Notes: a model not told the origin generated them from the sequence alone. A DNA stretch of 64,000 nt from Minisyncoccota bacterium (GCA_041657405.1 JBBABX010000002.1:108915-172914), one strand, 5' to 3'. Numbered from the stretch's first letter, positions 47,963-63,278 are shown. Numbers and translations: made by a program.

Positions 47963-48034
47963 GGCCCTATCGTCTAATGGCTAGGACATCACCCTTTCAC
48001 GGTGGTAATCGGGGTTCGACTCCCCGTAGGGTCA
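47963..48034 (+). tRNA. tRNA-Glu(TTC); 3' end is the attachment site of the downstream island
   Basis: Acceptor GGCCCTA/TAGGGTC, anticodon stem TCACC/GGTGG with loop CTTTCAC, T-loop GGTTCGACTCC. Confidence 0.85.
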
Positions 48035-48151
48035 CAATAGAGAGAGCTAGTTCGAGCACTCGACAAGGGTCGAAACTAGCAAACAAAAGCAAGTCAGAAA
48101 TGACTTGCTTTTGTTGTAGTTTAATACAACGATTTGTGATATAATATTTTC

Positions 48152-48358
48152 ATGAAGGATGACGCCAAAAAGTTGGGAGAAAATCTCAAAAATATCCGAA
48201 CAAGCAAGAATATCACTCAGACTGAATTTGCTGAGAAGCTTGGTGTCGATAAGTCTTTTGTCAGTAATATCGAGAACGGAAAGACAAACCCCACTCTTTC
48301 TACTATTACTAATCTAGCCCAGACATTAGGAGTGTCTACTAACGAATTATTAAAATAA
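48152..48358 (+). CDS. XRE-family HTH transcriptional regulator
   Basis: LKNIRTSKNITQTEFAEKLGVDKSFVSNIENGKTNPTLSTITNLAQTLGVSTNELL, a classic Cro/C1 HTH. Confidence 0.7.
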   Translation: MKDDAKKLGENLKNIRTSKNITQTEFAEKLGVDKSFVSNIENGKTNPTLSTITNLAQTLGVSTNELLK

Positions 48359-48359
48359 T

Positions 48360-49814
48360 ATGTTCGAACAAGCATTCAAAAACATAGACGATATCTTACA
48401 CAAAGACGCTGGCGCATCCAGTGAACTTGATTATGTTGAACAAACATCATGGATCCTTTTCCTAAAATATCTTGATGACTTAGAGGCTGACCGAGCACTA
48501 GAGGCGAGCTTTATGAATAAGGAATATAAATATATCCTACCTTTACAGTTTCGTTGGAATATCTGGGCTTGCCCGAAAAATAAGGATGGCAAAATTGATC
48601 ATAATAAAGCTCTTACAGGAGATGATTTGAAAGATTTTGTTGATCAGAAACTATTCCCTTCACTCAAGAAGTTTAAAACTGATGCACTTAGTCCTGACAC
48701 GATTGAATACAAGATTGGAGAAATATTTAGTGAATTAAAAAACAAGATTCAAAGTGGCTATGCTTTGCGTGAGATTTTGAACATTGTTGATGCGATGCAT
48801 TTCCGATCACAAGAAGAAAAGCACGAGCTATCACATTTGTATGAAGGCAAAATCAAGAACATGGGTAATGCGGGACGAAATGGTGGTGAATATTACACTC
48901 CTCGCCCTCTCATTAAAACAATTGTGAACGTAGTTGGTCCAAAGATTGGCGACAAAATATATGACGGTGCTGTTGGATCGGCAGGATTCCTTGTTGAGGC
49001 TTTTGAATATTTGAAACAGAGCAAAGACTTGTCTACGAAAGACATGGAAATTCTCCAAAAGAAAACTTTCTACGGTAAGGAGAAAAAGTCACTTGCATAC
49101 ATTATCGGTATCATGAATATGATTTTGCATGGTATTGATGCCCCAAATATTATTCACACCAACACACTCGCTGAAAATCTTGCTGATATTCAGGAAAAAG
49201 ATAGATATGATGTGGTCCTTGCCAATCCTCCATTTGGTGGAAAAGAACGTACTGAAGTACAGCAAAACTTTCCAATTAAAACTGGTGAGACAGCGTTCCT
49301 GTTCCTTCAGCATTTTATAAAAATACTAAAAGCTGGTGGTAAAGCGGGTGTGGTTATCAAAAATACATTTCTATCAAATACAGATAATGCATCAGTATCG
49401 CTCCGAAAACATTTACTTGAAAGTTGTAACCTTCACACGGTCCTAGATCTTCCAGGTGGAACATTTACCGGTGCAGGAGTAAAAACAGTTATTTTATTTT
49501 TTGAAAAAGGTGCTCCAACTAAAAAGGTTTGGTACTACCAATTAAATCTCAGTAGAAATCTTGGGAAAACCAACCCTTTGAATGAAAAGGATCTTGCTGA
49601 TTTTATTGCTTTGCAAAAAACAAAAGCAGATTCAGATAATTCTTGGTCCATTGACGTTAAAGATGTTGATCAGAAGACTTTTGATTTGTCTGTGAAGAAT
49701 CCGAATAAGGGGGTTGAGGTTGTTTTGCGGGAGCCGAAGGGTATTTTGGTAGAAATGGAAAAACTTGATGCAGAAATCAAGAGCAATATATTGAGTATCA
49801 AAAAGCTTTTATAA
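48360..49814 (+). CDS. hsdM: Type I restriction-modification system methyltransferase subunit M
   Basis: HsdM N-terminal domain; SAM motif GSAGFL; catalytic LANPPFGG. Confidence 0.9.
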   Translation: MFEQAFKNIDDILHKDAGASSELDYVEQTSWILFLKYLDDLEADRALEASFMNKEYKYILPLQFRWNIWACPKNKDGKIDHNKALTGDDLKDFVDQKLFPSLKKFKTDALSPDTIEYKIGEIFSELKNKIQSGYALREILNIVDAMHFRSQEEKHELSHLYEGKIKNMGNAGRNGGEYYTPRPLIKTIVNVVGPKIGDKIYDGAVGSAGFLVEAFEYLKQSKDLSTKDMEILQKKTFYGKEKKSLAYIIGIMNMILHGIDAPNIIHTNTLAENLADIQEKDRYDVVLANPPFGGKERTEVQQNFPIKTGETAFLFLQHFIKILKAGGKAGVVIKNTFLSNTDNASVSLRKHLLESCNLHTVLDLPGGTFTGAGVKTVILFFEKGAPTKKVWYYQLNLSRNLGKTNPLNEKDLADFIALQKTKADSDNSWSIDVKDVDQKTFDLSVKNPNKGVEVVLREPKGILVEMEKLDAEIKSNILSIKKLL

Positions 49815-49818: not shown

Positions 49819-50043
49819 ATGAGTAATTCATTTTCAGAAAGACAAAAAATAATTGAGGTAAAAAGTCTAGATCTTCAAGACATGCCCATTGAAGTTAAGA
49901 ACAGGCTTTGGAATATTATTCAAGATTATATTGATAATAAATATCACGAGGGTCATGACCGTAACTTAATTATTGAATCTATTTGGGATAAATTTTTTAA
50001 ACAAAATAAAAATGATCTATGGGGTCAAACTAGTTATAGATAA
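49819..50043 (+). CDS. hypothetical protein inserted between hsdM and hsdS
   Basis: 74-aa ORF 4 nt after the hsdM stop. No motif recognised. Confidence 0.35.
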   Translation: MSNSFSERQKIIEVKSLDLQDMPIEVKNRLWNIIQDYIDNKYHEGHDRNLIIESIWDKFFKQNKNDLWGQTSYR

Positions 50044-50049
50044 AAATAT

Positions 50050-50640
50050 ATGGATTATTACCTAGGTCAAATTCAAGAGAGGTTTTATAAACTTGAGTGG
50101 AATCGCACCTATGATTTTTTGGAATTTATAATTTCTTCTGATAATTATGATCAGCGTAGAAATAATCTTGTCTGGCAGTTAAATCAGGTTTTTGATGAAG
50201 AAAAAATACCTTACAAAATAATTGATGGTCAAGTAACCCCACTAATTTCTGAGGAAGAATTAGAAGAGATTGATACAGCCCTAAACAGTAAGTATGATTT
50301 AGTCTCCAATCATCTAAGAAGGGCCCTCGAGTACTATAAAAAGAGACCAGAAGCCGACTATAAGAATTCAATAAAAGAATCAGTAAGTGCCGTCGAAGCA
50401 TTAGCGAAAATATTATTGAATAATCCACAAGGCACCTTAGGTAAACTTGCTGATGATCTAAACATTCACAGTGCTCTTAAGGAAGCTATAAAGAAAATAT
50501 ACGGATGGACTTCAGATGAGGGTGGTATAAGACACTCAGAAAAGAATGGACAAAAAAGTGTCGATATTGCTGAGGCTAGATATATGCTTGTCCATTGTTC
50601 CGCTCTTGTAAACTTTCTGATTTCAAAATATGAAAACTAA
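50050..50640 (+). CDS. hypothetical protein inserted in R-M operon (possible Abi/HEPN-like accessory)
   Basis: 196-aa helical protein with GWTSDEGGIRHSEKNGQ (R-H pair). Sits at a position where Abi/anticodon-nuclease genes occur in Type I loci. Confidence 0.35.
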   Translation: MDYYLGQIQERFYKLEWNRTYDFLEFIISSDNYDQRRNNLVWQLNQVFDEEKIPYKIIDGQVTPLISEEELEEIDTALNSKYDLVSNHLRRALEYYKKRPEADYKNSIKESVSAVEALAKILLNNPQGTLGKLADDLNIHSALKEAIKKIYGWTSDEGGIRHSEKNGQKSVDIAEARYMLVHCSALVNFLISKYEN

Positions 50641-51841
50641 TTGGCAAACAAAAAAACTCGGTGAGATTTGTGATATAGAGATTGGTAAAACCCCATCTCG
50701 ATCAAATAAAAAACTGTGGGATATTGAGAAAACAACTAAGAATGTCTGGTTGTCCATAAGAGATCTTTCAAATGCGGAAGATGGAATTATCTCTGATAGT
50801 AGAGAATATGTTTCTGATAAAGCTGCATCATCTTTATCGCTTGTTGAAAAGGGTACATTGTTGGTCAGCTTCAAACTCACTCTTGGCCGACTGGCATTTG
50901 CTGGTAAAGATTTATATACGAATGAGGCGATTGCTGCGCTAAATATTAAGGATGAAAAAGAAATATCTAGAGAATATCTATATCAGTATTTAAGTTATTT
51001 TGATTGGGATGCTGCAACAAAAGGTGATGTGAAAGTAAAAGGAAAAACTCTCAATAAAGCTAAATTAAAGGAAATTGAAATAGTATATCCACCACTCCCC
51101 GAACAAAAAAGGATAGTAAAAACTCTTGATGAGACATTCAAAAAACTAGAAAAAGCAAAAGAAATTACAGAAAAGAATTTAAGGAATTCAAAAGAGCTTT
51201 TCGACTCTTACTTGCAGGGAGTTTTCAATAGTCCAAATAGTAATTGGAAAGAGAAACGACTTGAGGAACTAGGCCAGATTACTTCTAGTAAGAGAATTTA
51301 CAAAAAAGAATACGTCACTCATGGTATTCCTTTTTACAGAATAAAAGAAATTAAAGAGCTTGCTCATGATAAAAAAATAACGATTGAGCTGTATATTTCA
51401 AAAGATAGATACAAAGAAATAAAGAATATTTTTGGTATACCCAAAGAGGGAGATATCTTAATGACAGCTGTGGGAACTATTGGTGAAATTTATGTGGTGA
51501 AAAAAGATGAGGAGTTTTACTTTAAAGATGGAAATATTCTCTGGTTTAAAAACTTCGATACTGTAGATCCAAATTTTCTAAAATATGCACTGATTTCCTT
51601 TGTTGAACAAATCAATAATCTTTCTAAAGGTTCTGCTTACAGTGCCCTAACGATAGAAAAAATCGAAAAACATAAGATATTTATACCTACTGACATAAAA
51701 GAACAAAAATCTATTGTTAAAAAACTCGACCATCTTTCTGAACAAACAAAAAATCTCGAATTAATTTATCAAAAGAAAATTTCTGCTATCGAGGAATTGA
51801 AAAGATCCATCCTAAGCAAAGCCTTCTCAAAGGGACTATAG
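50630..51841 (+). CDS. hsdS: Type I R-M specificity subunit S (two target-recognition domains)
   Basis: Duplicated TRD architecture with a conserved central repeat LPPLPEQKRIVKTLDE and coiled-coil spacers. Confidence 0.85.
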   Translation: MKTNWQTKKLGEICDIEIGKTPSRSNKKLWDIEKTTKNVWLSIRDLSNAEDGIISDSREYVSDKAASSLSLVEKGTLLVSFKLTLGRLAFAGKDLYTNEAIAALNIKDEKEISREYLYQYLSYFDWDAATKGDVKVKGKTLNKAKLKEIEIVYPPLPEQKRIVKTLDETFKKLEKAKEITEKNLRNSKELFDSYLQGVFNSPNSNWKEKRLEELGQITSSKRIYKKEYVTHGIPFYRIKEIKELAHDKKITIELYISKDRYKEIKNIFGIPKEGDILMTAVGTIGEIYVVKKDEEFYFKDGNILWFKNFDTVDPNFLKYALISFVEQINNLSKGSAYSALTIEKIEKHKIFIPTDIKEQKSIVKKLDHLSEQTKNLELIYQKKISAIEELKRSILSKAFSKGL

Positions 51842-51843: not shown

Positions 51844-54171
51844 TTGTATAATGTCAAGCATATGAACGAAGCAGAAACTAGAGCTGAATATATTGATCCG
51901 AAGCTAAAAGAATCTGGCTGGGGTGTCATCGAAGGATCCAAAGTCCTTCGAGAATTTCGTATATCTCCAGGGAAAATTCAAATCGGTGGTGCTCTACAAA
52001 AACCTGAAATTGCAGACTATGTCTTGGTATATAAAAACCGTAAGCTTGCGATTGTAGAAGCAAAGAAAGAGTCACTTGAATATACAGAAGGTGTTGCTCA
52101 AGCAAAGACATATGCTGGTAAACTTCAGATTGCTTATACATACTCTACAAATGGTCACGATATCTATGAGATAGGAATGCAAACAGGTCTCGAGGGACCA
52201 GTGAATAAATTTCCAACACCGGATGAACTCTGGGATAAGACTTATTCAGATCAAAATGCTTGGAAAGAAAAATTTACCAATGTCCCATTTGAAGACGTAA
52301 ACGGGAGTAAGAATGCTCGCTACTATCAAGAGATTGCCGTTAATCGTGTTATGGACGCTGTGGCAGAAGATAAGAAAAGAGTGTTGCTGACACTTGCAAC
52401 AGGTACGGGAAAAACTTTTATTGCTTTCCAAATTGCGTGGAAACTATTCCAGAGCAGATGGAATCTATCAAAAGACGGTGAAAGACGACCTCGTATACTT
52501 TTCCTAGCTGATAGAAACATACTTGCTGATCAAGCATTTAATGCCTTCGGTGCTTTTCCAGAAGATGCTTTGGTTCGTATAACTCCAAATGACATTCGTC
52601 GTAAAGGTGAGGTCCCAATGAACGGCAGTATCTTCTTTGCTATTTTCCAAACATTTATGAGCGGTCCAAATGACACTCCTTACTACGGTGATTATCCTTC
52701 AGACTATTTTGATTTCATTATTATTGATGAGTGTCACCGCGGTGGTGCAAATGATGAATCTAATTGGCGAGGTATTCTTGAATACTTCTCTCCTGCGGTC
52801 CAACTAGGTCTTACAGCTACTCCAAAACGAAAAGATAATACAGACACATATAAATATTTTGGTGATCCAGTCTATATATACTCTCTTAAGGAAGGTATAA
52901 ACGATGGATTCCTTACACCGTTCAAAGTCAAAAGAATCAAAACAACGCTTGATGAGTACATCTACACATCAGACGACATGATTGTTGAAGGTGAAGTAGA
53001 AGAAGGAAAGGTTTACAAAGAGGATGATTTTGCTCGTGGAAATATAAAAATTATTGAGCGAGAGGAATTTCGTGTTAAGACATTTTTGAAAGAAATAAAT
53101 CAAAATGAAAAAACTATCGTATTTTGTGCTACACAAGGTCATGCGCTTCTTGTTCGTGATTTGATAAATAAACATAAAGAAAATAAAGATCCAAATTATT
53201 GTCAGCGTGTTACTGCAAATGATGGTTTTCTTGGTGAACAATATCTAAGAGAGTTTCAAGATAACGAAAAGACCATCCCGACAATTTTGACTACATCACA
53301 AAAACTTTCTACAGGAGTAGATGCACGAAACATTCGAAATATTGTACTTATGCGACCAGTCAACTCAATGATTGAGTTTAAACAAATAGTTGGACGTGGC
53401 ACGAGACTGTTTGATGGTAAAGAATATTTCACAATTATAGATTTTGTAGATGCATATCATCATTTCCTAGATCCTGAATGGGATGGCGAACCGATTGATC
53501 AAACCACTGAAGAGGTTGAGCCGAAAGAACCAAAAGAGCCTAAGGAACCGAGAGAACCCGGACCAACACCTGAGCCACCAGAAGAACAACCAAGGAAGTT
53601 GAAAATCAAACTTCGTGATGGTAAAGAAAGAGAAATACAACATATGGTCCAAACATCTTTTTGGAGTGCTGATGGTAGACCAATTTCTACTGAAGAATTT
53701 TTGAATAATCTTTATGGAACCTTGCCTGATTTATTTAAAGATGAAAAACAATTAAGAGATATTTGGTCAAATCCACAAACTCGAAAGACTCTACTTGATA
53801 AACTTGGTGAACTTGGATATGGAAAAGATCAGCTTGAATCTATTCAAAAAATTATAAACGCTGAGAATAGTGATTTGTTCGATGTGCTTGGATATATTGC
53901 ATTTGCATTACAGCCTATTACTCGTGCAGAGAGAATTCAAAATACAAAGTACGACATCTTGGATGGTTTAGATGAAAAACATCGTGAGTTTATTGAATTC
54001 GTATTAGCTAAATATCAAGAGAGAGGTGTTGAAGAATTAGATGAAGAAAAACTCCCACAATTACTCAATCTCAAATATCACGCTATTTCTGATGCCGAGA
54101 AAAAACTTGGCGGAGTTAAATTGATCAGATCAAATTTCTTTACCTTTCAAAAGCATCTTTATTCAAAATAA
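51844..54171 (+). CDS. hsdR: Type I restriction enzyme R subunit (short, ~775 aa) with Pro/Glu/Lys-rich linker
   Basis: HsdR N-terminal nuclease region TRAEYIDPKL; helicase motif I LATGTGKTF; DEAH-like IIDECHRG; motif VI QIVGRGTR; EPKEPKEPKEPREPGP linker. Confidence 0.9.
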   Translation: MYNVKHMNEAETRAEYIDPKLKESGWGVIEGSKVLREFRISPGKIQIGGALQKPEIADYVLVYKNRKLAIVEAKKESLEYTEGVAQAKTYAGKLQIAYTYSTNGHDIYEIGMQTGLEGPVNKFPTPDELWDKTYSDQNAWKEKFTNVPFEDVNGSKNARYYQEIAVNRVMDAVAEDKKRVLLTLATGTGKTFIAFQIAWKLFQSRWNLSKDGERRPRILFLADRNILADQAFNAFGAFPEDALVRITPNDIRRKGEVPMNGSIFFAIFQTFMSGPNDTPYYGDYPSDYFDFIIIDECHRGGANDESNWRGILEYFSPAVQLGLTATPKRKDNTDTYKYFGDPVYIYSLKEGINDGFLTPFKVKRIKTTLDEYIYTSDDMIVEGEVEEGKVYKEDDFARGNIKIIEREEFRVKTFLKEINQNEKTIVFCATQGHALLVRDLINKHKENKDPNYCQRVTANDGFLGEQYLREFQDNEKTIPTILTTSQKLSTGVDARNIRNIVLMRPVNSMIEFKQIVGRGTRLFDGKEYFTIIDFVDAYHHFLDPEWDGEPIDQTTEEVEPKEPKEPKEPREPGPTPEPPEEQPRKLKIKLRDGKEREIQHMVQTSFWSADGRPISTEEFLNNLYGTLPDLFKDEKQLRDIWSNPQTRKTLLDKLGELGYGKDQLESIQKIINAENSDLFDVLGYIAFALQPITRAERIQNTKYDILDGLDEKHREFIEFVLAKYQERGVEELDEEKLPQLLNLKYHAISDAEKKLGGVKLIRSNFFTFQKHLYSK

Positions 54172-54176: not shown

Positions 54177-55457
54177 TCAAGTAACCTTAATTGTCTTATT
54201 CTTCAAAACAAGCTCACTACTGATACATTCCAAGATAGATCTTTGCTCTAGCGGAGATCCTTCTTTCAGTACAAATTTTGTATAATCCTTTAGATCAATA
54301 GGTTCTATTTTCTCTGTCTTTTTCTTGCCCAAAAACATTGCTTGTAGCTTCTTAAACTTTTGAATTTCAACATCAAGCTTTGCAGTGAGTTTAACCTTGT
54401 TTATGTTCAAAGTATCAACCATATTAAGTAGTGATTCGATAAGTTCAGTTTCGTTCAGTGCAGGATTTTTACAATTCCTGTCTTTGGCTTTTGTGCATCG
54501 GTAATACACATGCCGATTAACTCCACCATTCAGCAACTTCTTAAACTTTTCATCCGCAGTAATACCTGATCCACAAACTCCACATTTCATAATTCGCGTA
54601 AAAGCAAATTCTTTACCTTGAGATTTAATAACTTGTGACTTGATAGAGTTTCTTGTCTCGTCAAACAATTCTTTAGAGATAATAGGTTTATGTTTTCCCT
54701 CATACCAAACACCTGATCCTTGTGGGAACTCAAAGCGACCATAGTAGAAAGTATTATTTATAATCTTGAATACATTTCCTAAACTTAGATGAAAACCTCT
54801 GTGAGTTTTAAAATCAAGATCATACCGTAACCATGCGTGTACTTTTGATACACTCCATTTTTCATAACTAATCTTCTCAAATATTTGTCGTATGGTATCA
54901 GCTCGTTCTGGATCAATTTCTACCTCACACTTTGCTAATCGTTGATTAGGCTTTCTATATCCTGTTGGTGGTTGTACTGGCCATAATCCCATTTCGCACC
55001 TAGCTCTCATACCACGCTTTACATTGATACTTTTATTATCGTTTTCGAGTTTTGCCTGACTACAAAGGATCATTAGCAGGAACTTATCACTTGGTGAATT
55101 AGAAAAAGTCTGACCAAAAGTTTTGATCTGAATTAGTTTCCTTTGATCCATTCTATCTACAAGTTTTCCGAGGTCACCTGCATTACGAGAAAGTCGATCA
55201 GGTGCCCATGTGATTATTCCGTTGAATATCCCCGTGTCGATATCTTTTACGATTTCCTCAAATACAGGTCTTTGTCCAGATTCTTTTGCAGAGTGGGATT
55301 CCTTGCGGATCTCAACAATGGTGAGATTTTCACGCTCGGCAATCTGCTTCATTTCTTTGATTTGAGAATCAATAGAAAGTGCTTGCTTTTCCTCTGCTTC
55401 GGTTGACTTACGAGCGTATAAGCAATACTTCATTTGGCTTTGTTCAACTTCTGTCAT
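54177..55457 (-). CDS. large serine recombinase (resolvase domain + recombinase domain + zinc ribbon)
   Basis: Catalytic-Ser N-terminus YARKSTEAEEKQALSIDSQ; recombinase domain; C4 zinc ribbon CGVCGS...YYRCTKAKDRNC. Confidence 0.85.
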   Translation of the reverse strand: MTEVEQSQMKYCLYARKSTEAEEKQALSIDSQIKEMKQIAERENLTIVEIRKESHSAKESGQRPVFEEIVKDIDTGIFNGIITWAPDRLSRNAGDLGKLVDRMDQRKLIQIKTFGQTFSNSPSDKFLLMILCSQAKLENDNKSINVKRGMRARCEMGLWPVQPPTGYRKPNQRLAKCEVEIDPERADTIRQIFEKISYEKWSVSKVHAWLRYDLDFKTHRGFHLSLGNVFKIINNTFYYGRFEFPQGSGVWYEGKHKPIISKELFDETRNSIKSQVIKSQGKEFAFTRIMKCGVCGSGITADEKFKKLLNGGVNRHVYYRCTKAKDRNCKNPALNETELIESLLNMVDTLNINKVKLTAKLDVEIQKFKKLQAMFLGKKKTEKIEPIDLKDYTKFVLKEGSPLEQRSILECISSELVLKNKTIKVT

Positions 55458-56409: not shown

Positions 56410-56994
56410 CTACATTGATGGAATATCAGACTCTTTAGGTTTTTTTATCTTTGGTGGCTTTTTTCCAGTTTTTTCGTATTCTTTCATCCATTCCTCAAAT
56501 ATTTCCTGTGCTCTATATTCATTCGGCTTATTAAGAACACCTCTCCATTTATCCAGAAATTCCACCGCATTTTTTCCTGCTTGTTCTTGTTTTTTCTTTT
56601 CTTCTTCTGTAACAGTGTTTCGTATATTCTGCTCGATTTCGCGTTGTCTAACCCCTTCCATTGTGGAACGGAAATGCGTGATCAAATCATCAGAATCAAC
56701 TTTGAACACATATGGTCTTCTGAAATCAGGGTGCTTATGACTTAACCAATACTTTGTATACATGGTGTCTTTTCTCTTGATACCTTCAAGTACATTACTA
56801 AGAGCAACATCACTAACAAGACCGACACCAAGCGACATAGCTTCATTTATTCGAACGAGAAATTTATGATCCTCTTTCATCCAGCGATAGAAAGTATTTC
56901 TTGAAATACCAATCTTATCACAAGCGATCTGAATGACTGGTGTTTTCTCAATCTCTTCCGCGAGTTTATTAAGCAGTGCCTGTGTCTTTTTCAT
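56410..56994 (-). CDS. HTH protein resembling phage terminase small subunit
   Basis: N-terminal HTH IQIACDKIGISRNTFYRWMKED; basic/acidic C-terminus with a KKPPKIKKPK tail. Confidence 0.4.
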   Translation of the reverse strand: MKKTQALLNKLAEEIEKTPVIQIACDKIGISRNTFYRWMKEDHKFLVRINEAMSLGVGLVSDVALSNVLEGIKRKDTMYTKYWLSHKHPDFRRPYVFKVDSDDLITHFRSTMEGVRQREIEQNIRNTVTEEEKKKQEQAGKNAVEFLDKWRGVLNKPNEYRAQEIFEEWMKEYEKTGKKPPKIKKPKESDIPSM

Positions 56995-58252
56995 AAATCG
57001 CCTTACAACCTGTCAGCTTCTCGTACCTACATACGATCAAGTCACAGAAAACTTCAGAAAGCTCGCACCCATACACCCTTCGACCAAGAGCTTGCGCAGA
57101 AATAAGAGTGCTACCCGAACCAAGAAAGCTGTCCAGAATGATGTCATGGGGCTTCGTACAGCGTTTTATGGCTTTCTCATGGAGCTGTGGAGGTTTAGAT
57201 GTTGCATGTTCGTATTCCTTTGCAGGCAATCGTTTAGCCATCCAAACATCGTTAATTTCTTCAAGTAAGTCATTACCAGTACTTAATTCTTTATTAAGAA
57301 CCTCATTGAGATTTTTAATATTTGAAAGGTATGGTTTTCCACGAATACCGTATACAACAGGCTCATATACTTTATTAAACGCCACAGACGGAACGGGGTT
57401 CTGATTGTTTTTTAACCATAAACACACTCGTTTGTTGGCAATACCTAAAGAGCGATATAGATCCTGAACTACTCCGATATACACCTGATCACACCAGTAA
57501 AATACATGAGTATCTTTATTTGAAACAGCGAGAGCGGCCTCCATGCTGTCTTTCAAAAACTTTTTATACTCATCAAAACTTCTAGTGTCATTCACATTTC
57601 CACCATAATCTTTCTTGCCTCCAATACCACCATCGTAGTCTACGGAAATGTTATAAACTGGATCGCTATAGATCATGCTTGCTCGGTCATTACCAAGCAG
57701 ACGAACAAGGTTGTTTTTATCCGTAGAATCTCCACAAAGGATGCGATGATTTCCGAGAATGATAATGTCACCAAGTTTAGTTTTTGGATTCTTGATTTTC
57801 TTTAGTTCTTTTTCGACATCAAAATCGTCTCCCGTAACTTCTTTTTTGGTGTCCATAAGTTCGCCGATTTCAATCGGGTCGAAACCTGCAAACTCCAACG
57901 TCTCGAAATCGAATGATTTGAGTAAACCAAAATCCCAATCACCGCCAAGCTTATTGGAAGCGATCAAGTACTCTTTTGATTCCTTTTCCGTAAGCTTACG
58001 GTTGGGTACACGAATATCAATAAGCTCTTCACCTCGACCGATGAGTTGCAGAGCTTTTATTCGCTGATGACCAGCGAGAATTGTGCCGTCTTTGTCGACA
58101 GCGGGTATCTCAACAAGGTTATACTTCTTGAGACTTCTAGTAAGATCCGACATTTGCTTGTCGGTAATAACACGAGGATTGATCTTTTGAGGGATAAGAT
58201 CATTAACCCGTTTTTGGACTGTAGTCCAAGATAGTTTTTTCATAAGTAACAA
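56969..58252 (-). CDS. ParB-like nuclease domain fused to beta-class N6A/N4C DNA methyltransferase (orphan MTase)
   Basis: ParB-N box LVEIPAVDKDGTILAGHQRIKAL; motif IV SDPVY (DPPY variant); C-terminal motif I ILDSFLGSGST. Confidence 0.75.
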   Translation of the reverse strand: MLLMKKLSWTTVQKRVNDLIPQKINPRVITDKQMSDLTRSLKKYNLVEIPAVDKDGTILAGHQRIKALQLIGRGEELIDIRVPNRKLTEKESKEYLIASNKLGGDWDFGLLKSFDFETLEFAGFDPIEIGELMDTKKEVTGDDFDVEKELKKIKNPKTKLGDIIILGNHRILCGDSTDKNNLVRLLGNDRASMIYSDPVYNISVDYDGGIGGKKDYGGNVNDTRSFDEYKKFLKDSMEAALAVSNKDTHVFYWCDQVYIGVVQDLYRSLGIANKRVCLWLKNNQNPVPSVAFNKVYEPVVYGIRGKPYLSNIKNLNEVLNKELSTGNDLLEEINDVWMAKRLPAKEYEHATSKPPQLHEKAIKRCTKPHDIILDSFLGSGSTLISAQALGRRVYGCELSEVFCDLIVCRYEKLTGCKAIYEKDTGTA

Positions 58253-58410: not shown

Positions 58411-58674
58411 GTGGATATGTCAAAAAAGATAACTTTTAACGATCTTGATAAAGATATTGGACAAAAAATTAAAGATTGTCGTTTAGAAGCAGGATATTCT
58501 CAAACAAATCTTGCGAGACTTTTAAAATACGAAACACCTACTGCTATTTCACTGATTGAAAGTGGAGAGAGAAGCTTAAAGATTCATGATCTCATTATTC
58601 TCTGTCAGCTTTTTATGAAAAACTACGAATACTTCTTAGATAAACCCGATACTCATAAAATGGTCGAGAAATAA
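58411..58674 (+). CDS. XRE-family HTH regulator
   Basis: IGQKIKDCRLEAGYSQTNLARLLKYETPTAISLIESGERSLKIHDL. Confidence 0.65.
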   Translation: MDMSKKITFNDLDKDIGQKIKDCRLEAGYSQTNLARLLKYETPTAISLIESGERSLKIHDLIILCQLFMKNYEYFLDKPDTHKMVEK

Positions 58675-58695: not shown

Positions 58696-61600
58696 ATGCA
58701 ATTTTTAGATAAAGAATGGTCAAAAAAGCACTTAGAGGATATCAAAAAGAAAGCTGATAAGCGTTACACACCAGAATTAAATGTTGAGCTTCCTATATCT
58801 GAGATTTTTGACGGACTTGGTCGTACTAAGGCTTTTTATACAACGGTGCAATCTCACTACGGGAAACTTTTTAAAAGATTTAGGTCAATAACCAGTGTTT
58901 ATAAAAATAGAAAAATTCAAAGAACATTTAATTCTTTTGCTCGAAATGTAAAAGAGCTATTAGATATTCTAGAAAACGTAAAGAAGTACGAGACAACACA
59001 GATCCCGTGGAAAAAAATTAATTCGCTTGCTGAAAAATCACAGTCTTATTCTTGGAAACTTTCTGACCAAATTAGAAAGGAAAAAGAAAAACCTGTCCAA
59101 AAAGAATTGCTTAAACCAGAAGAACCTTATACTTATCCAAGAACCAATGCTGATATATTCAACTCTGATCTACACGATATAACAGAAGTTCAAAGGGAGC
59201 TTAGATTTTTTATAGACTTTAGTAAAAGCACTTCCGCAGAAACTTCAAATAGACCATTTCTGTTGGTTAATGGACTAGCCGGATCTGGCAAGACACACTT
59301 GCTGTGTGATTTGGTTAAACATCGAATTGATAAGGGCTACGCTCCTACTGTTCTAAGCTTCGGTGAATTTTTTGAAGGCAGTGATGATATTTGGTTCAAA
59401 ATGGCCAAACAGTTTGGGTTGAATCCCGTAAAATGGAATAAGGACAAAATACTAAAAGAACTTGATAATAAGGGTAAGTCTACAAAAAGCAGGTCAATCT
59501 TAATGATTGATGCTTTAAATGAATCGAGGCCATTATCTTTTTGGAACAGTAAACTTAAAAAGCTTCTTGCTGATATTCGCAAATATCCAAATGTGGCTCT
59601 CGTAGCAACTATCCGTTCAGGTTTTGAGAAAGATGTAATAAATGAAAATGTTAAGAAACAATTTACCCAAGAAGAGCATCGGGGCTTTGAATTTCAAGAA
59701 TGGGAAGCTGTAACAAAATTCTTTAAAGAGTTTTCATTACCCCTTCCAGAAATCCCTCTCTTAACTCCTGAGTTTCAAAATCCGCTTTTCCTTCTATTAT
59801 TTTGCAAAGCATTTGAGAACACAGCCGGAAAGAAACAGAAAAAGTCATTCAAAGGTCAGGAAGGTGCTACACATATTTTTGAAAAGTATGTTGATTCGGT
59901 CTCAAAGAAAATTGAGAAAAAGTTTAAAATTGATCACGGGCCAGGAAAGAATATCTGGGATACGGTAATAGAAAAGATTGCCGAACAAATGGTTAATAAA
60001 AATGTAGACAGATTATTTGCGGATGATATTTTGAAGTTAATCAAAAAAGCTCACCCTGCACTTGGTGAAAGTACTCTTTTAGATGATTGCGAAAAGAACT
60101 TTTTACTGGTTAAAGTTCCACATTATGTACCAGAAACAGGTACTTCAGCAGGCTTTGATTATCGTTTTCCTTTCCAGAGGTTTAGTGACCATTTAGTCGG
60201 AAGATCTCTTTTTAAGAAGTATGAAAAGGAGTTTGGTAAAACAAACAAAAATATTTCCACTGCAACTAAATTCTTTTCAAAAAGAAGGAAGCTAGGAAAA
60301 TTTTTAAGTCGTGGAATTAACCGAGGAATCATAGAAGCTCTATTTATTCAGTGTCCTGAACAACTCAAAGGTGTTGAGTTTTTTGAGGTGGCTCCACATG
60401 TAAAGGACTACCTAGCTAAAGATGCTTTTGTTCAAAGTATCGTATGGAGACAACCATCAGCATTTTCTTCAGATCTTAAAAAACCACTCGAATTTATAAA
60501 TAGAAGAATATTAGCATTTGGAGACGGAAACTCAGCAATCTTAAACGCTTTTCTATCTGTAGCCGTCGTTCCCTCACATCCATTTAATGCAGAATTTCTC
60601 CATAAGCATTTAATGAAGATGAAGATGCCAGCCAGAGATGCTTGGTGGTCAGTGTTTCTTCATGACGAACACAAAGACAGAAACGCAGTAGATCGACTGC
60701 TTAAGTGGAGTTGGTCTGATCAAGAATTATGCCATCTCACAGACGACTCAATCTTTTTAACCGCGATTACGCTTGCTTGGTTCTTAACTACACCGAACCG
60801 TTTTGTTAGAGACAAGGCGACTAAAGGTTTAGTGACTCTGCTACAAAATAGATTAAACCTCGTTAAAAGGCTTTTGGAAAAGTTTGAGAACGTAGATGAC
60901 CCTTATATTACGGAGCGATTATTCGCTGTTGCCTATGGGAGTATTCTTAGAAACCAAAAAGATACAGCTAATATAAAAACCATAGCTGTTTATACCTACA
61001 ACAAGTTTTTTAAGAGCAACAGACCACCTGTACATGCTTTGATTCGAGATTATGCTCGTGGAATTATTGAAGCCGCTAGACTAAACAAAATTAATTTCCG
61101 TCATTCCATTAAGAATACCGAACCCCCTTATCAGAGTACTTGGCCTACCAAAATACCTAGTAAGAAAACCTTAAATAAAAAATATAGTTTGGAGGATTAT
61201 TCCATAACAGAAAATAGTTTCCGTAGTGTCTGGTCATCATTAACCTTTGATGATTTTGGTAGGTACGAAATTGAATCACATCTTGGCTATTGGTCTGGAA
61301 GAAAATTAAACGTGGCAGAACCTGATAGAAAGGAAATATATAAAAAATTTAAGAGTGGTTTAACGAAGAAACAAAATGATTTGTTGGGCAAGGCAACTAA
61401 TATATTCTTTGGGATAAACATTAATAAAATAATGGCTCAAGTTAGGTTTGTAACCCCGGGGGAAAATAACGAAGTGGATGAGAAAGAAGAAAAAAAGAAC
61501 GAAGCGAAAGCAAAGAAAGAGAGAAAAGAACTTCTTGTAAACTTCAAGAATTCACTAAGTTTTAAAAAGCGTAAATATTTTGAAACAGAAATAGAGCCTT

Positions 61601-62838
61601 TTCTCGACGACCGTGGGTCTATTGAGGATCCTCGTGAGCGTTTTGATACCTCCCTTGCTCCAAGATGGATATTTAATCGTGTTATAGAGCTAGGTTACGA
61701 CCCAGAAATTCATGGAAAGTTTGATAATCGAGTTAACCGCTATGATAGTAGTGGCAGATCAAACCATAAAGCAGAGAGAATTGGTAAAAAATATCAGTGG
61801 ATTGCTTTGCATGAATTTACTGCCTTAGTAGCAGACCATTTTGAATTTACAGGTCGATACTGGGGCAGAAGTGGAGGAAAATATCTTGGCGCATGGAACC
61901 CATACATTAGGGATATAGATCCATCTTTGCTCATACAAAATGACAACAAAATAAAAGCAGAAGCAGAATTTAAAAATTGGAATAGTGGTCATGGAAAATA
62001 TGACGGTTGGTTGAAAGAAAGGAGTGATACGAAGTGGCTCCAAAAGAAATCCGATTTGCCTGATCCAAGAGAGATAATCAATATTACGGATGATACTGGT
62101 AGAAATTGGCTAGCTCTTAAAGGTATATTTGTTTGGCAACAAGAAACCCCACCAGAGCGAGAAAAATATGATTATCCTACTCGTGAATTGTTTTATATCT
62201 TAAAGAGCTTTATTGTCAAAAAGAAAGACTTAAAAAAGATTACTACTTGGGTAAAAAGCAAGGGCTTTGGTAATTGGTTGCCTGAATCAAATAACTGGTA
62301 CGAAACATTTATAGGTGAATTTCCAAATTCATCCTCCTTCGAAGATATGCGTGGCGACTTTAATGTATGGACTAAATCAAGTGATAAAGCTGTAGAAATA
62401 AGCAAGATTCCTTTGGTAGTGACTGACGATGGCTATTTAAATGAATTTACTCTCGATTGCTCGAGAGATGAAGGTATATCTATAATGCTTCCCTCAAAAT
62501 TCATTGTTAAAAAAATGAAATTGAAACAACCTGAGTTGGATGGAAGATTTCGAGATAAAAAAGGAAAGGTGGTAATGTACGCAACGAGTGTTTCTGAAGA
62601 AAACACACCTTCTGCGCTTATAGCTGACAAAAAAGAATTTTTAGAATTTTTGAATAAAAACGGATTAGCAGTCTTCTGGACTTTACTAGCAGAAAAGCAG
62701 TTTATTGGAGGAAGTAGATCGGGAATGGACGGATATAAAGGACGGTTGGAAACTTCTGGAATTTATTACTTTGACTCCAAAGACAGACTAAAAGGAACTA
62801 TGAATTCGAAATTTGATTCACCAAAGAAGAAATCCTAA
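58696..62838 (+). CDS. 1380-aa STAND/NACHT-like P-loop NTPase with long C-terminal helical region (candidate antiphage defence protein)
   Basis: Walker A LLVNGLAGSGKTHLL at ~aa 195; Walker B ILMIDALNE; sensor-like VALVATIRSG; about 1000-aa C-terminal region of unknown function. Located in a mobile island beside the R-M system. Confidence 0.55.
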   Translation: MQFLDKEWSKKHLEDIKKKADKRYTPELNVELPISEIFDGLGRTKAFYTTVQSHYGKLFKRFRSITSVYKNRKIQRTFNSFARNVKELLDILENVKKYETTQIPWKKINSLAEKSQSYSWKLSDQIRKEKEKPVQKELLKPEEPYTYPRTNADIFNSDLHDITEVQRELRFFIDFSKSTSAETSNRPFLLVNGLAGSGKTHLLCDLVKHRIDKGYAPTVLSFGEFFEGSDDIWFKMAKQFGLNPVKWNKDKILKELDNKGKSTKSRSILMIDALNESRPLSFWNSKLKKLLADIRKYPNVALVATIRSGFEKDVINENVKKQFTQEEHRGFEFQEWEAVTKFFKEFSLPLPEIPLLTPEFQNPLFLLLFCKAFENTAGKKQKKSFKGQEGATHIFEKYVDSVSKKIEKKFKIDHGPGKNIWDTVIEKIAEQMVNKNVDRLFADDILKLIKKAHPALGESTLLDDCEKNFLLVKVPHYVPETGTSAGFDYRFPFQRFSDHLVGRSLFKKYEKEFGKTNKNISTATKFFSKRRKLGKFLSRGINRGIIEALFIQCPEQLKGVEFFEVAPHVKDYLAKDAFVQSIVWRQPSAFSSDLKKPLEFINRRILAFGDGNSAILNAFLSVAVVPSHPFNAEFLHKHLMKMKMPARDAWWSVFLHDEHKDRNAVDRLLKWSWSDQELCHLTDDSIFLTAITLAWFLTTPNRFVRDKATKGLVTLLQNRLNLVKRLLEKFENVDDPYITERLFAVAYGSILRNQKDTANIKTIAVYTYNKFFKSNRPPVHALIRDYARGIIEAARLNKINFRHSIKNTEPPYQSTWPTKIPSKKTLNKKYSLEDYSITENSFRSVWSSLTFDDFGRYEIESHLGYWSGRKLNVAEPDRKEIYKKFKSGLTKKQNDLLGKATNIFFGININKIMAQVRFVTPGENNEVDEKEEKKNEAKAKKERKELLVNFKNSLSFKKRKYFETEIEPFLDDRGSIEDPRERFDTSLAPRWIFNRVIELGYDPEIHGKFDNRVNRYDSSGRSNHKAERIGKKYQWIALHEFTALVADHFEFTGRYWGRSGGKYLGAWNPYIRDIDPSLLIQNDNKIKAEAEFKNWNSGHGKYDGWLKERSDTKWLQKKSDLPDPREIINITDDTGRNWLALKGIFVWQQETPPEREKYDYPTRELFYILKSFIVKKKDLKKITTWVKSKGFGNWLPESNNWYETFIGEFPNSSSFEDMRGDFNVWTKSSDKAVEISKIPLVVTDDGYLNEFTLDCSRDEGISIMLPSKFIVKKMKLKQPELDGRFRDKKGKVVMYATSVSEENTPSALIADKKEFLEFLNKNGLAVFWTLLAEKQFIGGSRSGMDGYKGRLETSGIYYFDSKDRLKGTMNSKFDSPKKKS

Positions 62839-63258
62839 GGACTGTCACTTTTGTCACTTTTATGAACACAGAAGATAAGAAAAATCCTAAAAATTGGACA
62901 ACGGAAGAAACAGATAGAGTTGTTGCTGTATTTCAATGGTTACTAGATCAAGATAGAAAGCAAAACCCTCATTTATATACAAAGAAAGCTACTCTCGAGA
63001 AGGGTCGATTAAGGAGTCAGAAAGAGCTAAAATGAGCCTTACAGGGCAATATATCCTTGGGTCGCATCACGAGAAGGCTCACCAAATTAATGAACAAGAT
63101 GCGAAGCATCGGTGATTATAATTTTGTAGACTCTACAGGAAGTCGAAAGACGGAAGCGGTATACAAGACGAGCGAAGCGAGTGCTTGTCGCTGAGTCGGG
63201 GTCGAGAGTATTTTGGCTTTTGCAAGTCTTCCGAGCAAAAGACTTAGTAACTCGTGAC

Positions 63259-63278
63259 CGACTCCCCGTAGGGTCACA
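63259..63278. repeat. attR-like 20-bp direct repeat of tRNA-Glu 3' end
   Basis: Identical to 48018-48037. Confidence 0.8.

What the first reader, a model, noticed from the sequence alone, without database searches (positions are those of the whole stretch)
47963..63278. tRNA-Glu-targeted ~15.3 kb island with phage-satellite hallmarks and defence cargo
The last 20 bp of tRNA-Glu (CGACTCCCCGTAGGGTCACA, 48018-48037) recur exactly at 63259-63278, which is the classic signature of site-specific integration into a tRNA 3' end. Between the repeats are a large serine recombinase, a TerS-like HTH protein, a ParB-nuclease/MTase fusion, a GIY-YIG protein, two XRE regulators, a full hsdMSR set and a giant NTPase. 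There are no capsid, tail or portal genes, so the element looks like a satellite/PICI-like or integrative defence island rather than a prophage. One puzzle is that large serine recombinases usually do not generate 20-bp direct repeats, so the responsible integrase may lie outside the window or the repeat may be a relic.
Basis: seen in the sequence. Interest (0 to 1): 0.7.

Follow-up and report, generated by a model that had tools for sequence, protein, structure and literature searches.

The report
Serine-recombinase defence island in tRNA-Glu
A 15.2-kb mobile island full of anti-phage genes sits in a tRNA-Glu gene of a tiny "candidate phyla radiation" bacterium, and about 140 related loci suggest it was inserted by its own large serine recombinase, an enzyme class rarely linked to tRNA targets.

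Summary
The last 20 nt of tRNA-Glu(UUC), at 48017-48036, recur exactly at 63259-63278, and shuffles expect no such repeat. Four metagenome contigs from other species carry the predicted uninterrupted tRNA-Glu junction. The gene list is also right: XRE, hsdM/S/R, a broken AbiJ-like gene, a large serine recombinase (LSR), T5orf172, a TerS-like gene, ParB-methylase, and XRE plus Avs2. There is no tyrosine integrase and no structural gene.

This LSR has 575 matching stretches in species-representative genomes, nearly all Patescibacteria. In 52 of 71 loci with enough flank, a tRNA gene lies downstream with its 3' end facing the LSR, sometimes only about 125 bp away. Three further elements, in tRNA-Ser and tRNA-Glu, show the same repeat running from the T-loop to the tRNA 3' end. 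Conserved motifs abut the repeat on both element sides, and the motif type follows the LSR clade rather than the tRNA.

Relatives share a core of S24 repressor, ParB-methylase, TerS, TerL and LSR, with variable defence cargo and no capsid genes. That fits a phage satellite, but the satellite reading is inferred. The window copy has lost TerL and the repressor. The orphan LOOT RNA turns out to be a regular part of these elements.

The parts
47963..48035 (+). tRNA-Glu(UUC), the integration target. It is intact after integration and forms the attL side.
   Evidence: ARAGORN; Rfam tRNA 59.5 bits.
48017..48036 (+). Left copy of the 20-bp direct repeat (attL core), running from the T-loop CGACT to the tRNA 3' end plus 2 nt.
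   Evidence: Comparison of attB, attL and attR.
48037..48075 (+). Element-side arm next to the tRNA (the P' arm), holding the motif GCTAGTTCGAGC (48046-48057) and the palindrome TCGAGCACTCGA.
   Evidence: Present after the tRNA in 12 of 13 loci of this LSR clade, including one at tRNA-Arg and one at tRNA-Gly. Found in 0 of 3 and 1 of 34 loci of two other clades. It occurs only here in the window at 0 mismatches.
48152..48358 (+). XRE-family HTH regulator, a backbone gene at the tRNA-proximal end of the element.
   Evidence: Pfam HTH_3 E=6e-19. Homologues at 63-90% identity sit in the same position next to the tRNA in L008, L011, L012, L025, L032, L043 and L070, beside different cargo.
48360..49814 (+). 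hsdM, the Type I R-M methyltransferase (cargo slot between the tRNA and the LSR).
   Evidence: Pfam N6_Mtase 3e-63; PADLOC MTase_I 5e-159.
49819..50640 (+). AbiJ-like / PDC-S32 gene interrupted by an in-frame TAA at 50041-50043, so probably a pseudogene.
   Evidence: Pfam AbiJ_NTD4 matches on both pieces; PADLOC PDC-S32 2.6e-71; translation.
50630..51841 (+). hsdS, the Type I specificity subunit.
   Evidence: Pfam Methylase_S 1e-38, two TRDs.
51844..54171 (+). hsdR, the Type I restriction subunit.
   Evidence: Pfam ResIII and EcoEI_R_C; PADLOC REase_I 4e-137.
54177..55457 (-). Large serine recombinase (426 aa), the proposed integrase of the element.
   Evidence: Pfam Resolvase, Recombinase and Zn_ribbon_recom; phrog_95 integrase 2e-62; YARKS catalytic motif. 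Best PDB hits are SPbeta SprA/YokA and TP901-1 integrase. 575 related stretches were found in species-representative genomes.
55611..55733 (+). LOOT RNA (Rfam RF03000), lying 154 nt upstream of the LSR start and divergent from it.
   Evidence: 78.1 bits against a gathering score of 46.4. In related loci, 33 of 52 copies lie 144-275 nt upstream of the LSR on the opposite strand.
55794..56396 (+). T5orf172/MUG113 protein (by my recollection a GIY-YIG-clan domain), the candidate defence gene PDC-S57. It sits where relatives carry TerL.
   Evidence: Pfam T5orf172 1e-16; PADLOC PDC-S57 4e-73; synteny.
56410..56994 (-). TerS-like HTH protein (194 aa).
   Evidence: phrog_4102 terminase small subunit 1e-10. 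39% identical over 84 aa to the TerS that precedes TerL in L008.
56969..58252 (-). ParB-N domain fused to an N6/N4 DNA methyltransferase, a backbone gene.
   Evidence: Pfam N6_N4_Mtase 9e-31; phrog_498 and phrog_620. Present upstream of TerS in most related loci.
58411..58674 (+). Second XRE-family HTH, immediately upstream of Avs2.
   Evidence: Pfam HTH_3 3e-8.
58696..62838 (+). Avs2 antiviral STAND NTPase (1380 aa). It lacks the N-terminal ~180 residues of the solved Avs2.
   Evidence: PADLOC Avs2 PDLC02164 E=0, matching profile positions 169-1501. PDB 9o4e_A E=1e-196, query 19-1372 aligned to chain 180-1481.
62862..63035 (+). Conserved 57-aa ORF at the tRNA-distal end of the element, function unknown. 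Calling it a directionality-factor candidate is speculation only.
   Evidence: 64-86% identical ORFs in L007, L008, L065, L070, L082 and L089. DNA block 62843-63085 is 88% identical to L008. No Pfam or PHROG hit.
63242..63258 (+). Element-side arm at the distal end (the P arm): ACTTAGTAACTCGTGAC, directly abutting the right repeat copy.
   Evidence: The same motif directly precedes a T-loop-to-3'-end tRNA remnant in L037, L056, L027 and L062. It is unique in the window.
63259..63278 (+). Right copy of the 20-bp repeat (attR core), the displaced original 3' end of tRNA-Glu.
63279..63434 (+). Original sequence downstream of tRNA-Glu, i.e. host flank.
   Evidence: With the repeat, window 63259-63434 is 76-77% identical to the sequence that directly follows an intact tRNA-Glu in L090-L093.

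Best explanation
The 15,242-bp segment is one integrative element of a large Patescibacteria-wide family. Its integrase is the on-board large serine recombinase. The LSR recombines an element site (P arm ACTTAGTAACTCGTGAC, then the tRNA-derived core, then a P' arm containing GCTAGTTCGAGC) with a site inside tRNA-Glu. The crossover lies somewhere within the 20 bp that starts in the T-loop. Because the element carries its own copy of the tRNA 3' end, the tRNA stays intact at attL. The original 3' end is displaced to attR, and this produces the 20-bp direct repeat. The backbone consists of XRE, LSR, LOOT RNA, TerS-like, ParB-methylase and the 57-aa ORF. It frames three variable slots, which here hold a Type I R-M system plus a dead AbiJ-like gene, a T5orf172/PDC-S57 gene, and XRE plus Avs2. 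The element therefore works as a mobile anti-phage island. What is shown: the repeat, the uninterrupted site in relatives, the family-wide association of the LSR with tRNA genes, and the conserved arms. What is inferred: catalysis by the LSR, the crossover position, and the mode of transfer. Full-length relatives carry TerS, TerL and an S24 repressor but no capsid genes. This suggests packaging into a helper phage's capsids (a satellite lifestyle, about 35-40% likely). The window copy has lost TerL and the S24 repressor, so it would depend on others for transfer or be stranded.
For: (1) The repeat is exact and not expected by chance. (2) The predicted uninterrupted junction exists in 4 metagenome contigs. 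There, a tRNA-Glu with 1-2 mismatches to the window's continues directly into sequence 76-77% identical to window 63259-63434, among housekeeping genes. (3) No tyrosine integrase lies between the repeats. None appears among the 25 commonest Pfam families of 115 cargo ORFs from relatives, nor among the ten unannotated ORFs scanned in two other repeat-bounded elements. (4) 575 stretches in species-representative genomes encode relatives of the LSR. In 52 of 71 loci with at least 3 kb of downstream flank, a tRNA gene lies downstream with its 3' end facing the LSR. Only 7 of 66 loci have any tRNA upstream. The minimal spacing is 120-152 bp, with no cargo (L015, L017, L075, L081, L095, L100, L102). 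(5) The same repeat anatomy, from T-loop to tRNA 3' end and 18-20 nt long, bounds L037 and L056 (tRNA-Ser) and L028 (tRNA-Glu). These elements are 10.4-18.6 kb. (6) The P-arm motif abuts the repeat in 5 elements, and a P' motif follows the tRNA in most of the 52 loci. (7) LSR pairs at least 80% identical share the tRNA isotype in 86-90% of cases, against 13-24% below 60% identity. The P' motif type follows the LSR clade rather than the tRNA (12/13 vs 0/3 and 1/34). (8) Island tetranucleotide usage lies outside the host range. (9) Cargo identities come. Relatives carry MmeI-type, Type I and Type III R-M, Thoeris, Shedu and a DGR in the same slots.
Against: There is no biochemical evidence. No excised circle or attP junction was found in viral contigs, and no terminally redundant contigs were seen. 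The uninterrupted sites come from other species, have anticodon CTC rather than TTC, and lie in different gene neighbourhoods. No empty site was found in the same species. Only 4 of about 50 loci show a clear second repeat copy within the 10-kb flank. L007, L008 and L275 show none. Classical LSR sites need only a 2-bp identity, and the P and P' arms show no obvious dyad symmetry, so the site geometry is unresolved. For the satellite part, no replication module was detected. TerL is absent from 43 of 112 loci, including the window.
Confidence: 0.8

Rival explanations
1. The island is the relic of a classical tyrosine-integrase tRNA island whose integrase has been lost or lies outside the window. 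On this view the LSR is unrelated cargo or belongs to a nested element.
For: tRNA 3'-end repeats are the textbook signature of tyrosine integrases. The literature states that serine integrases were not known to target tRNA genes (PMC4383910) and that predicted cases are rare (14/297) and unproven (PMC7192596). The LSR sits 6 kb from attL and 8 kb from attR.
Against: No tyrosine integrase was found in the window island or among the ORFs scanned in relatives. The LSR-to-tRNA association is family-wide and orientation-specific, with spacing down to about 125 bp. Both ends of the window island carry family-specific arm motifs that follow the LSR clade, so both ends belong to the LSR element.
Confidence: 0.05
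2. The locus is a decayed, now immobile prophage remnant kept as a chromosomal defence hotspot. The repeat is a fossil of an old LSR integration, and cargo turnover happens by homologous recombination between conserved backbone genes, not by element transfer. There is no satellite lifestyle.
For: All backbone genes are phage-derived (LSR, TerS, TerL, ParB-methylase, CI-like repressor). The window copy lacks TerL and the S24 repressor and has a dead AbiJ-like gene. No replication module and no excised form were found. Cargo breakpoints coincide with the ends of conserved blocks.
Against: The LSR ORF is intact and the two repeat copies are identical. The backbone ORFs match at 40-90% identity over at least 40% of their length across well over a hundred loci, and none of 145 neighbouring ORFs is a structural gene. 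Uniform loss of that kind is not what random prophage decay predicts. Closely related LSRs occur at different tRNAs (L015 Glu and L017 Arg), and tandem copies occur at one tRNA (L028), which indicates ongoing integration.
Confidence: 0.12
3. The 20-mer at 63259 is the stump of a second, independent tRNA-Glu(CUC) gene whose 5' part was deleted, and is unrelated to integration.
For: The sequence to the right of the 20-mer is homologous to what follows tRNA-Glu(CTC), not TTC, in L090-L093.
Against: The stump starts at the same T-loop position as in three other elements at other tRNAs. It is directly preceded by the family's P-arm motif. Apart from one anticodon base, the window tRNA body is nearly identical to the tRNA of the uninterrupted sites: 1 mismatch in 74 nt in three contigs and 2 in the fourth.
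Confidence: 0.02
4. The recombinase is a DNA invertase or resolvase (as some source annotations name it) that controls phase variation of the adjacent Type I R-M system, not an integrase.
For: JGI names for homologues read 'DNA invertase Pin-like'. The gene abuts hsdR.
Against: It has the three-domain architecture of large serine integrases. There are no inverted repeats around hsdS. Homologues lie next to unrelated cargo, or no cargo at all, but always near a tRNA.
Confidence: 0.01

Closest known systems
tRNA-integrating genomic islands and prophages driven by tyrosine integrases (the 'Islander' signature; for example P4-like satellites with defence hotspots, recalled from memory)
   Same: An intact tRNA plus a displaced tRNA 3' fragment as a direct repeat. 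The element restores the tRNA. The integrase is on board, cargo slots vary and are rich in defence genes, and tandem arrays can form at one tRNA.
   Different: The recombinase here is a large serine recombinase, not a tyrosine recombinase. Published surveys call serine-integrase use of tRNA genes unknown (PMC4383910) or rare and unproven (PMC7192596).
Large serine integrases of temperate phages and islands (SPbeta SprA, TP901-1, A118, phiC31, Bxb1; also SCCmec CcrAB, recalled from memory)
   Same: Resolvase, Recombinase and Zn-ribbon architecture. Best structural-sequence matches are SprA/YokA and TP901-1. As recalled for SCCmec, which preserves the 3' end of rlmH, the target gene's 3' end is preserved, giving repeats longer than the 2-bp crossover.
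   Different: The targets are tRNA genes, with the identity block starting in the T-loop. The protein is short (426 aa). No directionality factor has been identified, and the site geometry is unresolved.
PLE of Vibrio cholerae (a phage satellite that uses a large serine recombinase; PMC9410903, seen)
   Same: An LSR-integrated, capsid-less chromosomal island with an anti-phage role.
   Different: By my recollection PLE integrates into Vibrio repeat sequences, encodes its own replication initiator and no terminase. The family here targets tRNAs, encodes TerS (and usually TerL), and shows no replication module.
PICI/SaPI-type satellites
   Same: Size of 10-19 kb, an integrase, a repressor (S24/CI-like in relatives), a TerS gene, no structural or lysis genes, and accessory cargo.
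   Different: No primase/replicase or ori was found. Most relatives also encode TerL but, unlike capsid-forming PICIs, no capsid or portal genes. The integrase is a serine recombinase. Helper dependence is untested.
Avs2 (AVAST type 2) and Type I R-M, the cargo systems
   Same: The full hsdM/S/R set is present. Avs2 matches the PADLOC Avs2 profiles and the solved Avs2 structure 9o4e over NTPase and sensor.
   Different: This Avs2 lacks the N-terminal ~180 residues of the solved protein and follows a separate XRE gene. Its effector is not identified.

Membership tests
Large serine recombinase (serine integrase) | N-terminal resolvase catalytic domain with a serine nucleophile | tested here: met
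   Pfam PF00239 E=3.7e-20; motif LYARKST at residues 13-19.
Large serine recombinase (serine integrase) | C-terminal Recombinase domain plus zinc-ribbon domain | tested here: met
   PF07508 2.3e-10 and PF13408 1.9e-8. Aligns to SprA/YokA over residues 14-380.
Large serine recombinase (serine integrase) | Coiled-coil motif within the zinc-ribbon domain that controls directionality | not tested
   No structure prediction was run. About 80 residues follow the zinc ribbon.
Large serine recombinase (serine integrase) | Catalyses attP x attB recombination at a 2-bp crossover | not testable with these tools
   Only the boundaries of the identity block are known.
tRNA-targeting integrative genomic island | Intact tRNA at one end and a displaced tRNA 3' fragment as a direct repeat at the other | tested here: met
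tRNA-targeting integrative genomic island | Uninterrupted target site in related genomes | tested here: met
   L090-L093. These are other species with anticodon CTC. No same-species empty site was found.
tRNA-targeting integrative genomic island | Tyrosine-family integrase on board (as in the Islander definition) | tested here: not met
   There is no Phage_integrase hit in the island. The integrase is serine-type.
tRNA-targeting integrative genomic island | Excision to a circular form | tested here: inconclusive
   The attP junction is absent from viral contigs.
Phage satellite (PICI-like) | Lacks capsid, tail and lysis genes and is far smaller than a phage | tested here: met
   Window island. 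Relatives: no structural family among the 25 most frequent PHROG families matched by 145 neighbouring ORFs. Bounded sizes are 10.4-18.6 kb.
Phage satellite (PICI-like) | Packaging-redirection gene(s), meaning TerS or a terminase | tested here: met
   TerS-like in the window (phrog_4102 1e-10). TerS plus TerL in relatives (phrog_38 6e-77). TerL is absent in the window.
Phage satellite (PICI-like) | Own replication module (primase/replicase plus ori) | tested here: not met
   None was detected in the window or in the annotated relatives.
Phage satellite (PICI-like) | Master repressor relieved by a helper phage or by SOS | tested here: inconclusive
   An S24/CI-like repressor is present in many relatives. 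The window has only XRE proteins.
Phage satellite (PICI-like) | Helper-dependent induction and packaging | not testable with these tools
   No cultured host or phage is available.
Avs2 (AVAST type 2) | STAND NTPase plus C-terminal sensor homologous to Avs2 | tested here: met
   PADLOC PDLC02164 E=0; PDB 9o4e_A 1e-196.
Avs2 (AVAST type 2) | N-terminal effector domain | tested here: inconclusive
   The alignment starts at residue 180 of 9o4e and position 169 of PDLC02164. A shorter profile, PDLC02165, matches from position 38.
Type I restriction-modification | hsdM, hsdS (two TRDs) and hsdR together | tested here: met
LOOT RNA (Rfam RF03000) | Score above the Rfam gathering threshold over the full model | tested here: met
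   78.1 bits against 46.4, model positions 1-121 of 121.

The most novel reading that the evidence does not exclude
These elements form a previously undescribed, Patescibacteria-wide class of capsid-less, terminase-encoding phage satellites. They integrate into the T-loop region of tRNA genes by means of a dedicated clade of large serine recombinases. The orphan LOOT RNA would be a functional backbone component, for example a packaging or regulatory RNA. On this reading tRNA targeting is not a tyrosine-integrase monopoly, and the family would provide programmable, tRNA-specific serine integrases for organisms that have no genetic tools.
Probability: 0.3. Interest if true: 0.85.

Novelty: new variant of a known kind. 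Interest (0 to 1): 0.65.

Why it matters
tRNA genes are the classic landing sites of tyrosine integrases. Published genome-wide surveys state that serine integrases were not known to use them, or found only a handful of unverified cases, and they asked why. A family with hundreds of members, where a large serine recombinase is systematically paired with tRNA-Glu, -Ser, -Gln, -Arg or -Trp and with recognisable arm motifs, makes that question testable. One can ask how a serine integrase reads a tRNA gene and how it changes target. Serine integrases are the preferred tools for inserting large DNA segments. A natural set with conserved, predictable tRNA targets would be useful, especially for candidate-phyla-radiation bacteria, which have no genetic systems. 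The family also shows how these very small genomes acquire and exchange anti-phage defences such as R-M, Avs2, Thoeris, Shedu and DGRs. It gives the first genomic context for the orphan LOOT RNA. It also points to a possible satellite-helper system in an uncultured phylum.

Tried and rejected
1. I searched for an excised or circular form. The window's predicted attP junction and a degenerate P-arm-plus-core pattern gave no hit in viral contigs. A 14-mer version returned only chance matches. None of 27 full-length viral contigs had terminal redundancy, and a pattern search for attP-like sites in viral loci found only attL sites.
2. I looked for a same-species empty site through exact-protein look-ups of the flanking ZIP and 82-aa genes. 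Only occupied or truncated contigs came back.
3. I tested the idea that carrying Avs2 (which by my recollection senses phage TerL) explains the loss of TerL in this copy. This cannot be tested, because Avs2 occurs only in the window among about 140 loci and TerL is missing in 43 of 112 loci anyway.
4. I tested whether LOOT RNA replaces TerL. Rejected: 23 loci have both.
5. I tested whether LOOT is a guide RNA for the LSR. This is unlikely, because L007 and L008 have LSRs 96-98% identical to the window's but no LOOT, and L008 still sits at tRNA-Glu.
6. I tested whether the LSR is an hsdS invertase. There are no inverted repeats.
7. I looked for a second repeat copy in L007, L008 and L275. None was found with up to 4-6 mismatches. 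The far end probably lies beyond the 10-kb flank or has decayed.
8. I looked for dyad symmetry in the reconstructed attP by eye. None was convincing, so the crossover position is left open.
9. Literature searches for this family in Patescibacteria found nothing specific. The library is incomplete, so prior description cannot be excluded.


Full report
**1. The observation**

ARAGORN and Rfam place tRNA-Glu(UUC) at 47963-48035. The 20-mer CGACTCCCCGTAGGGTCACA occurs at 48017-48036 and again, exactly, at 63259-63278. No further copy appears with up to three mismatches, and 100 dinucleotide-preserving shuffles gave none. It is the only exact long repeat in the region, with a spacing of 15,242 bp. 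The repeat starts in the T-loop (TTCGACT) and runs to two bases past the discriminator.

- XRE, then hsdM, hsdS and hsdR
- a three-domain large serine recombinase (LSR, 426 aa, minus strand)
- a T5orf172 protein, which matches the PADLOC candidate family PDC-S57
- a TerS-like HTH protein
- a ParB-N/methyltransferase fusion
- a second XRE
- a 1380-aa STAND NTPase that is Avs2 (PADLOC E=0; PDB 9o4e E=1e-196)

Three features were missed. An AbiJ-like gene is broken by an in-frame TAA. A LOOT RNA lies at 55611-55733. A conserved 57-aa ORF lies at 62862-63035. There is no tyrosine integrase and no structural gene. GC content matches the host (0.361 vs 0.370). Tetranucleotide usage of the island lies well outside the range of host chunks.

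**2. Host and abundance of the recombinase**

The LSR has more than 120 clusters at 80-100% identity. Where sources name them, they are Candidatus Paceibacterota, Nomurabacteria or Patescibacteria. A scan of one genome per species found 575 stretches encoding relatives at 55-96% identity. Almost all are in Patescibacteria MAGs. IMG/VR holds 60 more. I analysed about 140 of these loci, each with up to 10 kb of flank on either side.

**3. Is the segment an insertion?**

I built the junction expected if the island were removed: tRNA-Glu through the 20-mer, joined to the sequence right of 63278. I then searched metagenome contigs for it. Four contigs contain it. In them, a tRNA-Glu differing from the window's by only 1-2 bases, one of them in the anticodon (CTC instead of TTC), runs directly into about 175 nt. 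That stretch is 76-77% identical to window 63259-63434. The contigs carry housekeeping genes: mraW, ftsI and a Mur ligase upstream, peptidases and others downstream. So the sequence right of the second repeat copy is the natural continuation of a tRNA-Glu gene, and the 15.2 kb is an insertion relative to that state.

One caveat applies. These are other species with different neighbouring genes. I found no empty site in the same species.

**4. Which recombinase?**

Five comparative observations point to the LSR.

(a) With loci oriented so the LSR is on the plus strand, 52 of 71 loci with at least 3 kb downstream have a minus-strand tRNA gene downstream, its 3' end facing the LSR. Only 7 of 66 have any tRNA upstream. 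In several loci the tRNA lies only 120-152 bp past the LSR stop codon with nothing between. Elsewhere 1-10 kb of cargo is inserted there.

(b) Three further elements are bounded by the same kind of repeat. L037 and L056 lie in tRNA-Ser(GCU), with repeats of 20 and 19 nt. L028 lies in tRNA-Glu, with a repeat of 18 nt. Each repeat runs from the T-loop to the tRNA 3' end, and the elements measure 10.4-18.6 kb.

(c) Directly left of the distal repeat copy, the window, L037, L056, L027 and L062 share the motif ACTTAG(N)TCGTGAC. Directly right of the tRNA, most of the 52 loci carry a palindromic motif. It reads TCGTGCTAGCACGAG in most clades and GAGAGCTAGTTCGAGCACTCGA in the window's clade. Both motifs occur in the window only at the island ends.

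(d) LSR similarity predicts the tRNA isotype. Pairs at least 80% identical share it in 86-90% of cases, pairs below 60% in 13-24%. The tRNA-proximal motif type follows the LSR clade, not the tRNA. The window type is found in 12 of 13 loci of its clade, including members at tRNA-Arg and tRNA-Gly. It is found in 0 of 3 tRNA-Glu elements of another clade and in 1 of 34 loci of a third.

(e) No tyrosine integrase appears in the window island. None is among the 25 commonest Pfam families of 115 cargo ORFs, and none among the ten otherwise unannotated ORFs scanned in L037 and L056.

The long repeat is then simply explained. The element carries a replacement copy of the tRNA 3' end, so integration keeps the tRNA intact and displaces the original end. 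The crossover must lie within the 20-bp identity, whose left edge is the T-loop CG. Its exact position is not determined, and I saw no convincing dyad symmetry in the reconstructed element site.

**5. What kind of element?**

Full-length relatives share a core. Examples are L007 (a 705-kb Nomurabacteria chromosome record, CP064973.1), L008, and many others. The core consists of a divergent S24/CI-like repressor, a 139-aa protein, ParB-methylase, TerS, TerL (phrog_38, E=6e-77) and the LSR.

Variable genes occupy three slots:
- Between the LSR and the tRNA, the commonest families are ResIII, N6_N4_Mtase, N6_Mtase, Methylase_S, MmeI, T5orf172 and AbiEii-like ATPases. DsbA/thioredoxin and P-type ATPase families also occur.
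- Between TerL and the LSR, L095 carries a diversity-generating retroelement plus a Type III R-M system.
- Beyond the repressor, relatives carry Thoeris, HEPN, Shedu, an SF1 helicase or GIY-YIG genes.

Among 145 ORFs next to the core in about 35 loci, the only recurrent phage family is the CI/UmuD-like repressor. No capsid, portal or tail family recurs. The bounded sizes of 10-19 kb exclude complete tailed phages.

A conserved terminase pair without any structural gene, under a cleavable repressor, suggests that the elements are packaged into a helper phage's capsids. This is inference. I found no replication module and no packaged or circular form.

The window copy is a derived member. T5orf172 sits where TerL would be. 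XRE plus Avs2 sit where the repressor and the 139-aa gene would be. It keeps an intact LSR, both arms and identical repeat copies.

**6. LOOT RNA**

Rfam finds a full-length LOOT RNA 154 nt upstream of the LSR and divergent from it. Six of seven close relatives also have it. A covariance model built from eight copies found 52 copies in 143 sources. Of these, 33 lie 144-275 nt upstream of the LSR start on the opposite strand, and 6 lie 46-98 nt downstream on the same strand. LOOT is not exclusive with TerL, since 23 loci have both. It is absent from L007 and L008, whose LSRs are 96-98% identical to the window's, and L008 still sits at tRNA-Glu. LOOT is therefore not needed for targeting. It is a regular, optional backbone part of this family. 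I found no published function for it in the papers held.

**7. Comparison with known systems**

The anatomy (tRNA, replacement 3' end, direct repeat, cargo hotspots, tandem copies as in L028) is that of classical tRNA islands. Those are defined by tyrosine integrases. [quoted passage not shown] The TIGER survey found 14 of 297 serine-integrase elements in t(m)RNA genes. It noted this had not been reported before and needs experimental proof (PMC7192596).

The LSR itself is a normal member of its protein family. PLE shows that satellites can use an LSR. By my recollection PLE has a replication module, no terminase and a different target. PICIs share TerS, a repressor and the lack of structural genes, but they have replication genes and usually tyrosine integrases.

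I therefore file the window element as an LSR-driven tRNA-integrating defence island: a new variant of a known kind. It works like a tRNA island and may work like a satellite. It fails the tyrosine-integrase criterion of the first class and the replication-module criterion of the second.

**8. Verdict**

The satellite lifestyle is plausible at about 0.35-0.4. The element in this window may be a stranded derivative.

The wider result is the interesting part. It is a very large family of tRNA-targeting serine integrases with recognisable arms, defence cargo, a terminase module and LOOT RNA, found in an uncultured phylum. Limits: everything rests on metagenome assemblies and sequence comparison, flanks were capped at 10 kb, and the literature library is incomplete.

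Noticed in passing
window 55611-55733 (+); also L010, L011, L012, L014, L072, L086 and about 40 other loci: The orphan Rfam family LOOT RNA is a recurrent part of these LSR elements. Of 52 copies, 33 sit 144-275 nt upstream of the LSR start on the opposite strand, and 6 sit just downstream on the same strand. It is absent from L007 and L008, which have near-identical LSRs.
   Followed up: partly
window 58696-62838: The Avs2 homologue aligns to the solved Avs2 (9o4e) only from residue 180 onward, so the usual N-terminal effector region is missing. It is preceded by a separate 87-aa XRE gene. What serves as its effector is unclear.
   Followed up: partly
window 49819-50640: An AbiJ-like (PDC-S32) gene inserted between hsdM and hsdS is split by a single in-frame TAA at 50041-50043.
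   Followed up: yes
window 47963-48035 vs L090-L093; window 63279-63434: The uninterrupted relatives have tRNA-Glu with anticodon CTC where the window has TTC. The tRNA bodies otherwise differ by at most one base. About 175 nt of non-coding sequence after the tRNA is conserved at 76-77% between genomes that otherwise do not align, and it has no Rfam match.
   Followed up: partly
L028:760-830: The distal repeat copy of the L028 element is followed by a window-type tRNA-proximal arm (AGCTAATTCGAGCTCTCGA). This suggests two family members of different LSR clades integrated in tandem at one tRNA-Glu.
   Followed up: partly
L095:2100-9700 (same contig as L275): A diversity-generating retroelement (reverse transcriptase plus bAvd) and a Type III R-M system lie between TerL and the LSR, revealing a third cargo slot in the family.
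   Followed up: partly
L007:2637-2900: There are three copies of the distal-arm motif ACTTAGT(G)ATTCGTGAC within 260 bp, two of them inside a duplicated ~64-nt block. None is followed by a tRNA remnant, and this is unexplained.
   Followed up: no
L275:873-3324 vs window 44666-46764 and 63577-63664; L008:17390-17793: The block tRNA-Ser(CGA), island, tRNA-Glu lies in the opposite orientation relative to ftsZ and trxB in L275 compared with the window. In L008 the two tRNAs are adjacent and divergent. The neighbourhood of this site is rearranged between relatives.
   Followed up: no
L009:1-2320 vs L008: L009 shares the island and right flank with L008, but its left flank switches abruptly to GC-rich housekeeping genes inside a truncated DUF5343 gene. 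This may be a chimeric assembly or a recombination event.
   Followed up: no
window 16984-28476: Seven further tRNA genes lie in two clusters (Leu, Trp and Tyr at 17-19 kb; Cys, Leu, Leu and Lys at 27-28.5 kb). None has the family's arm motifs or an LSR nearby.
   Followed up: partly
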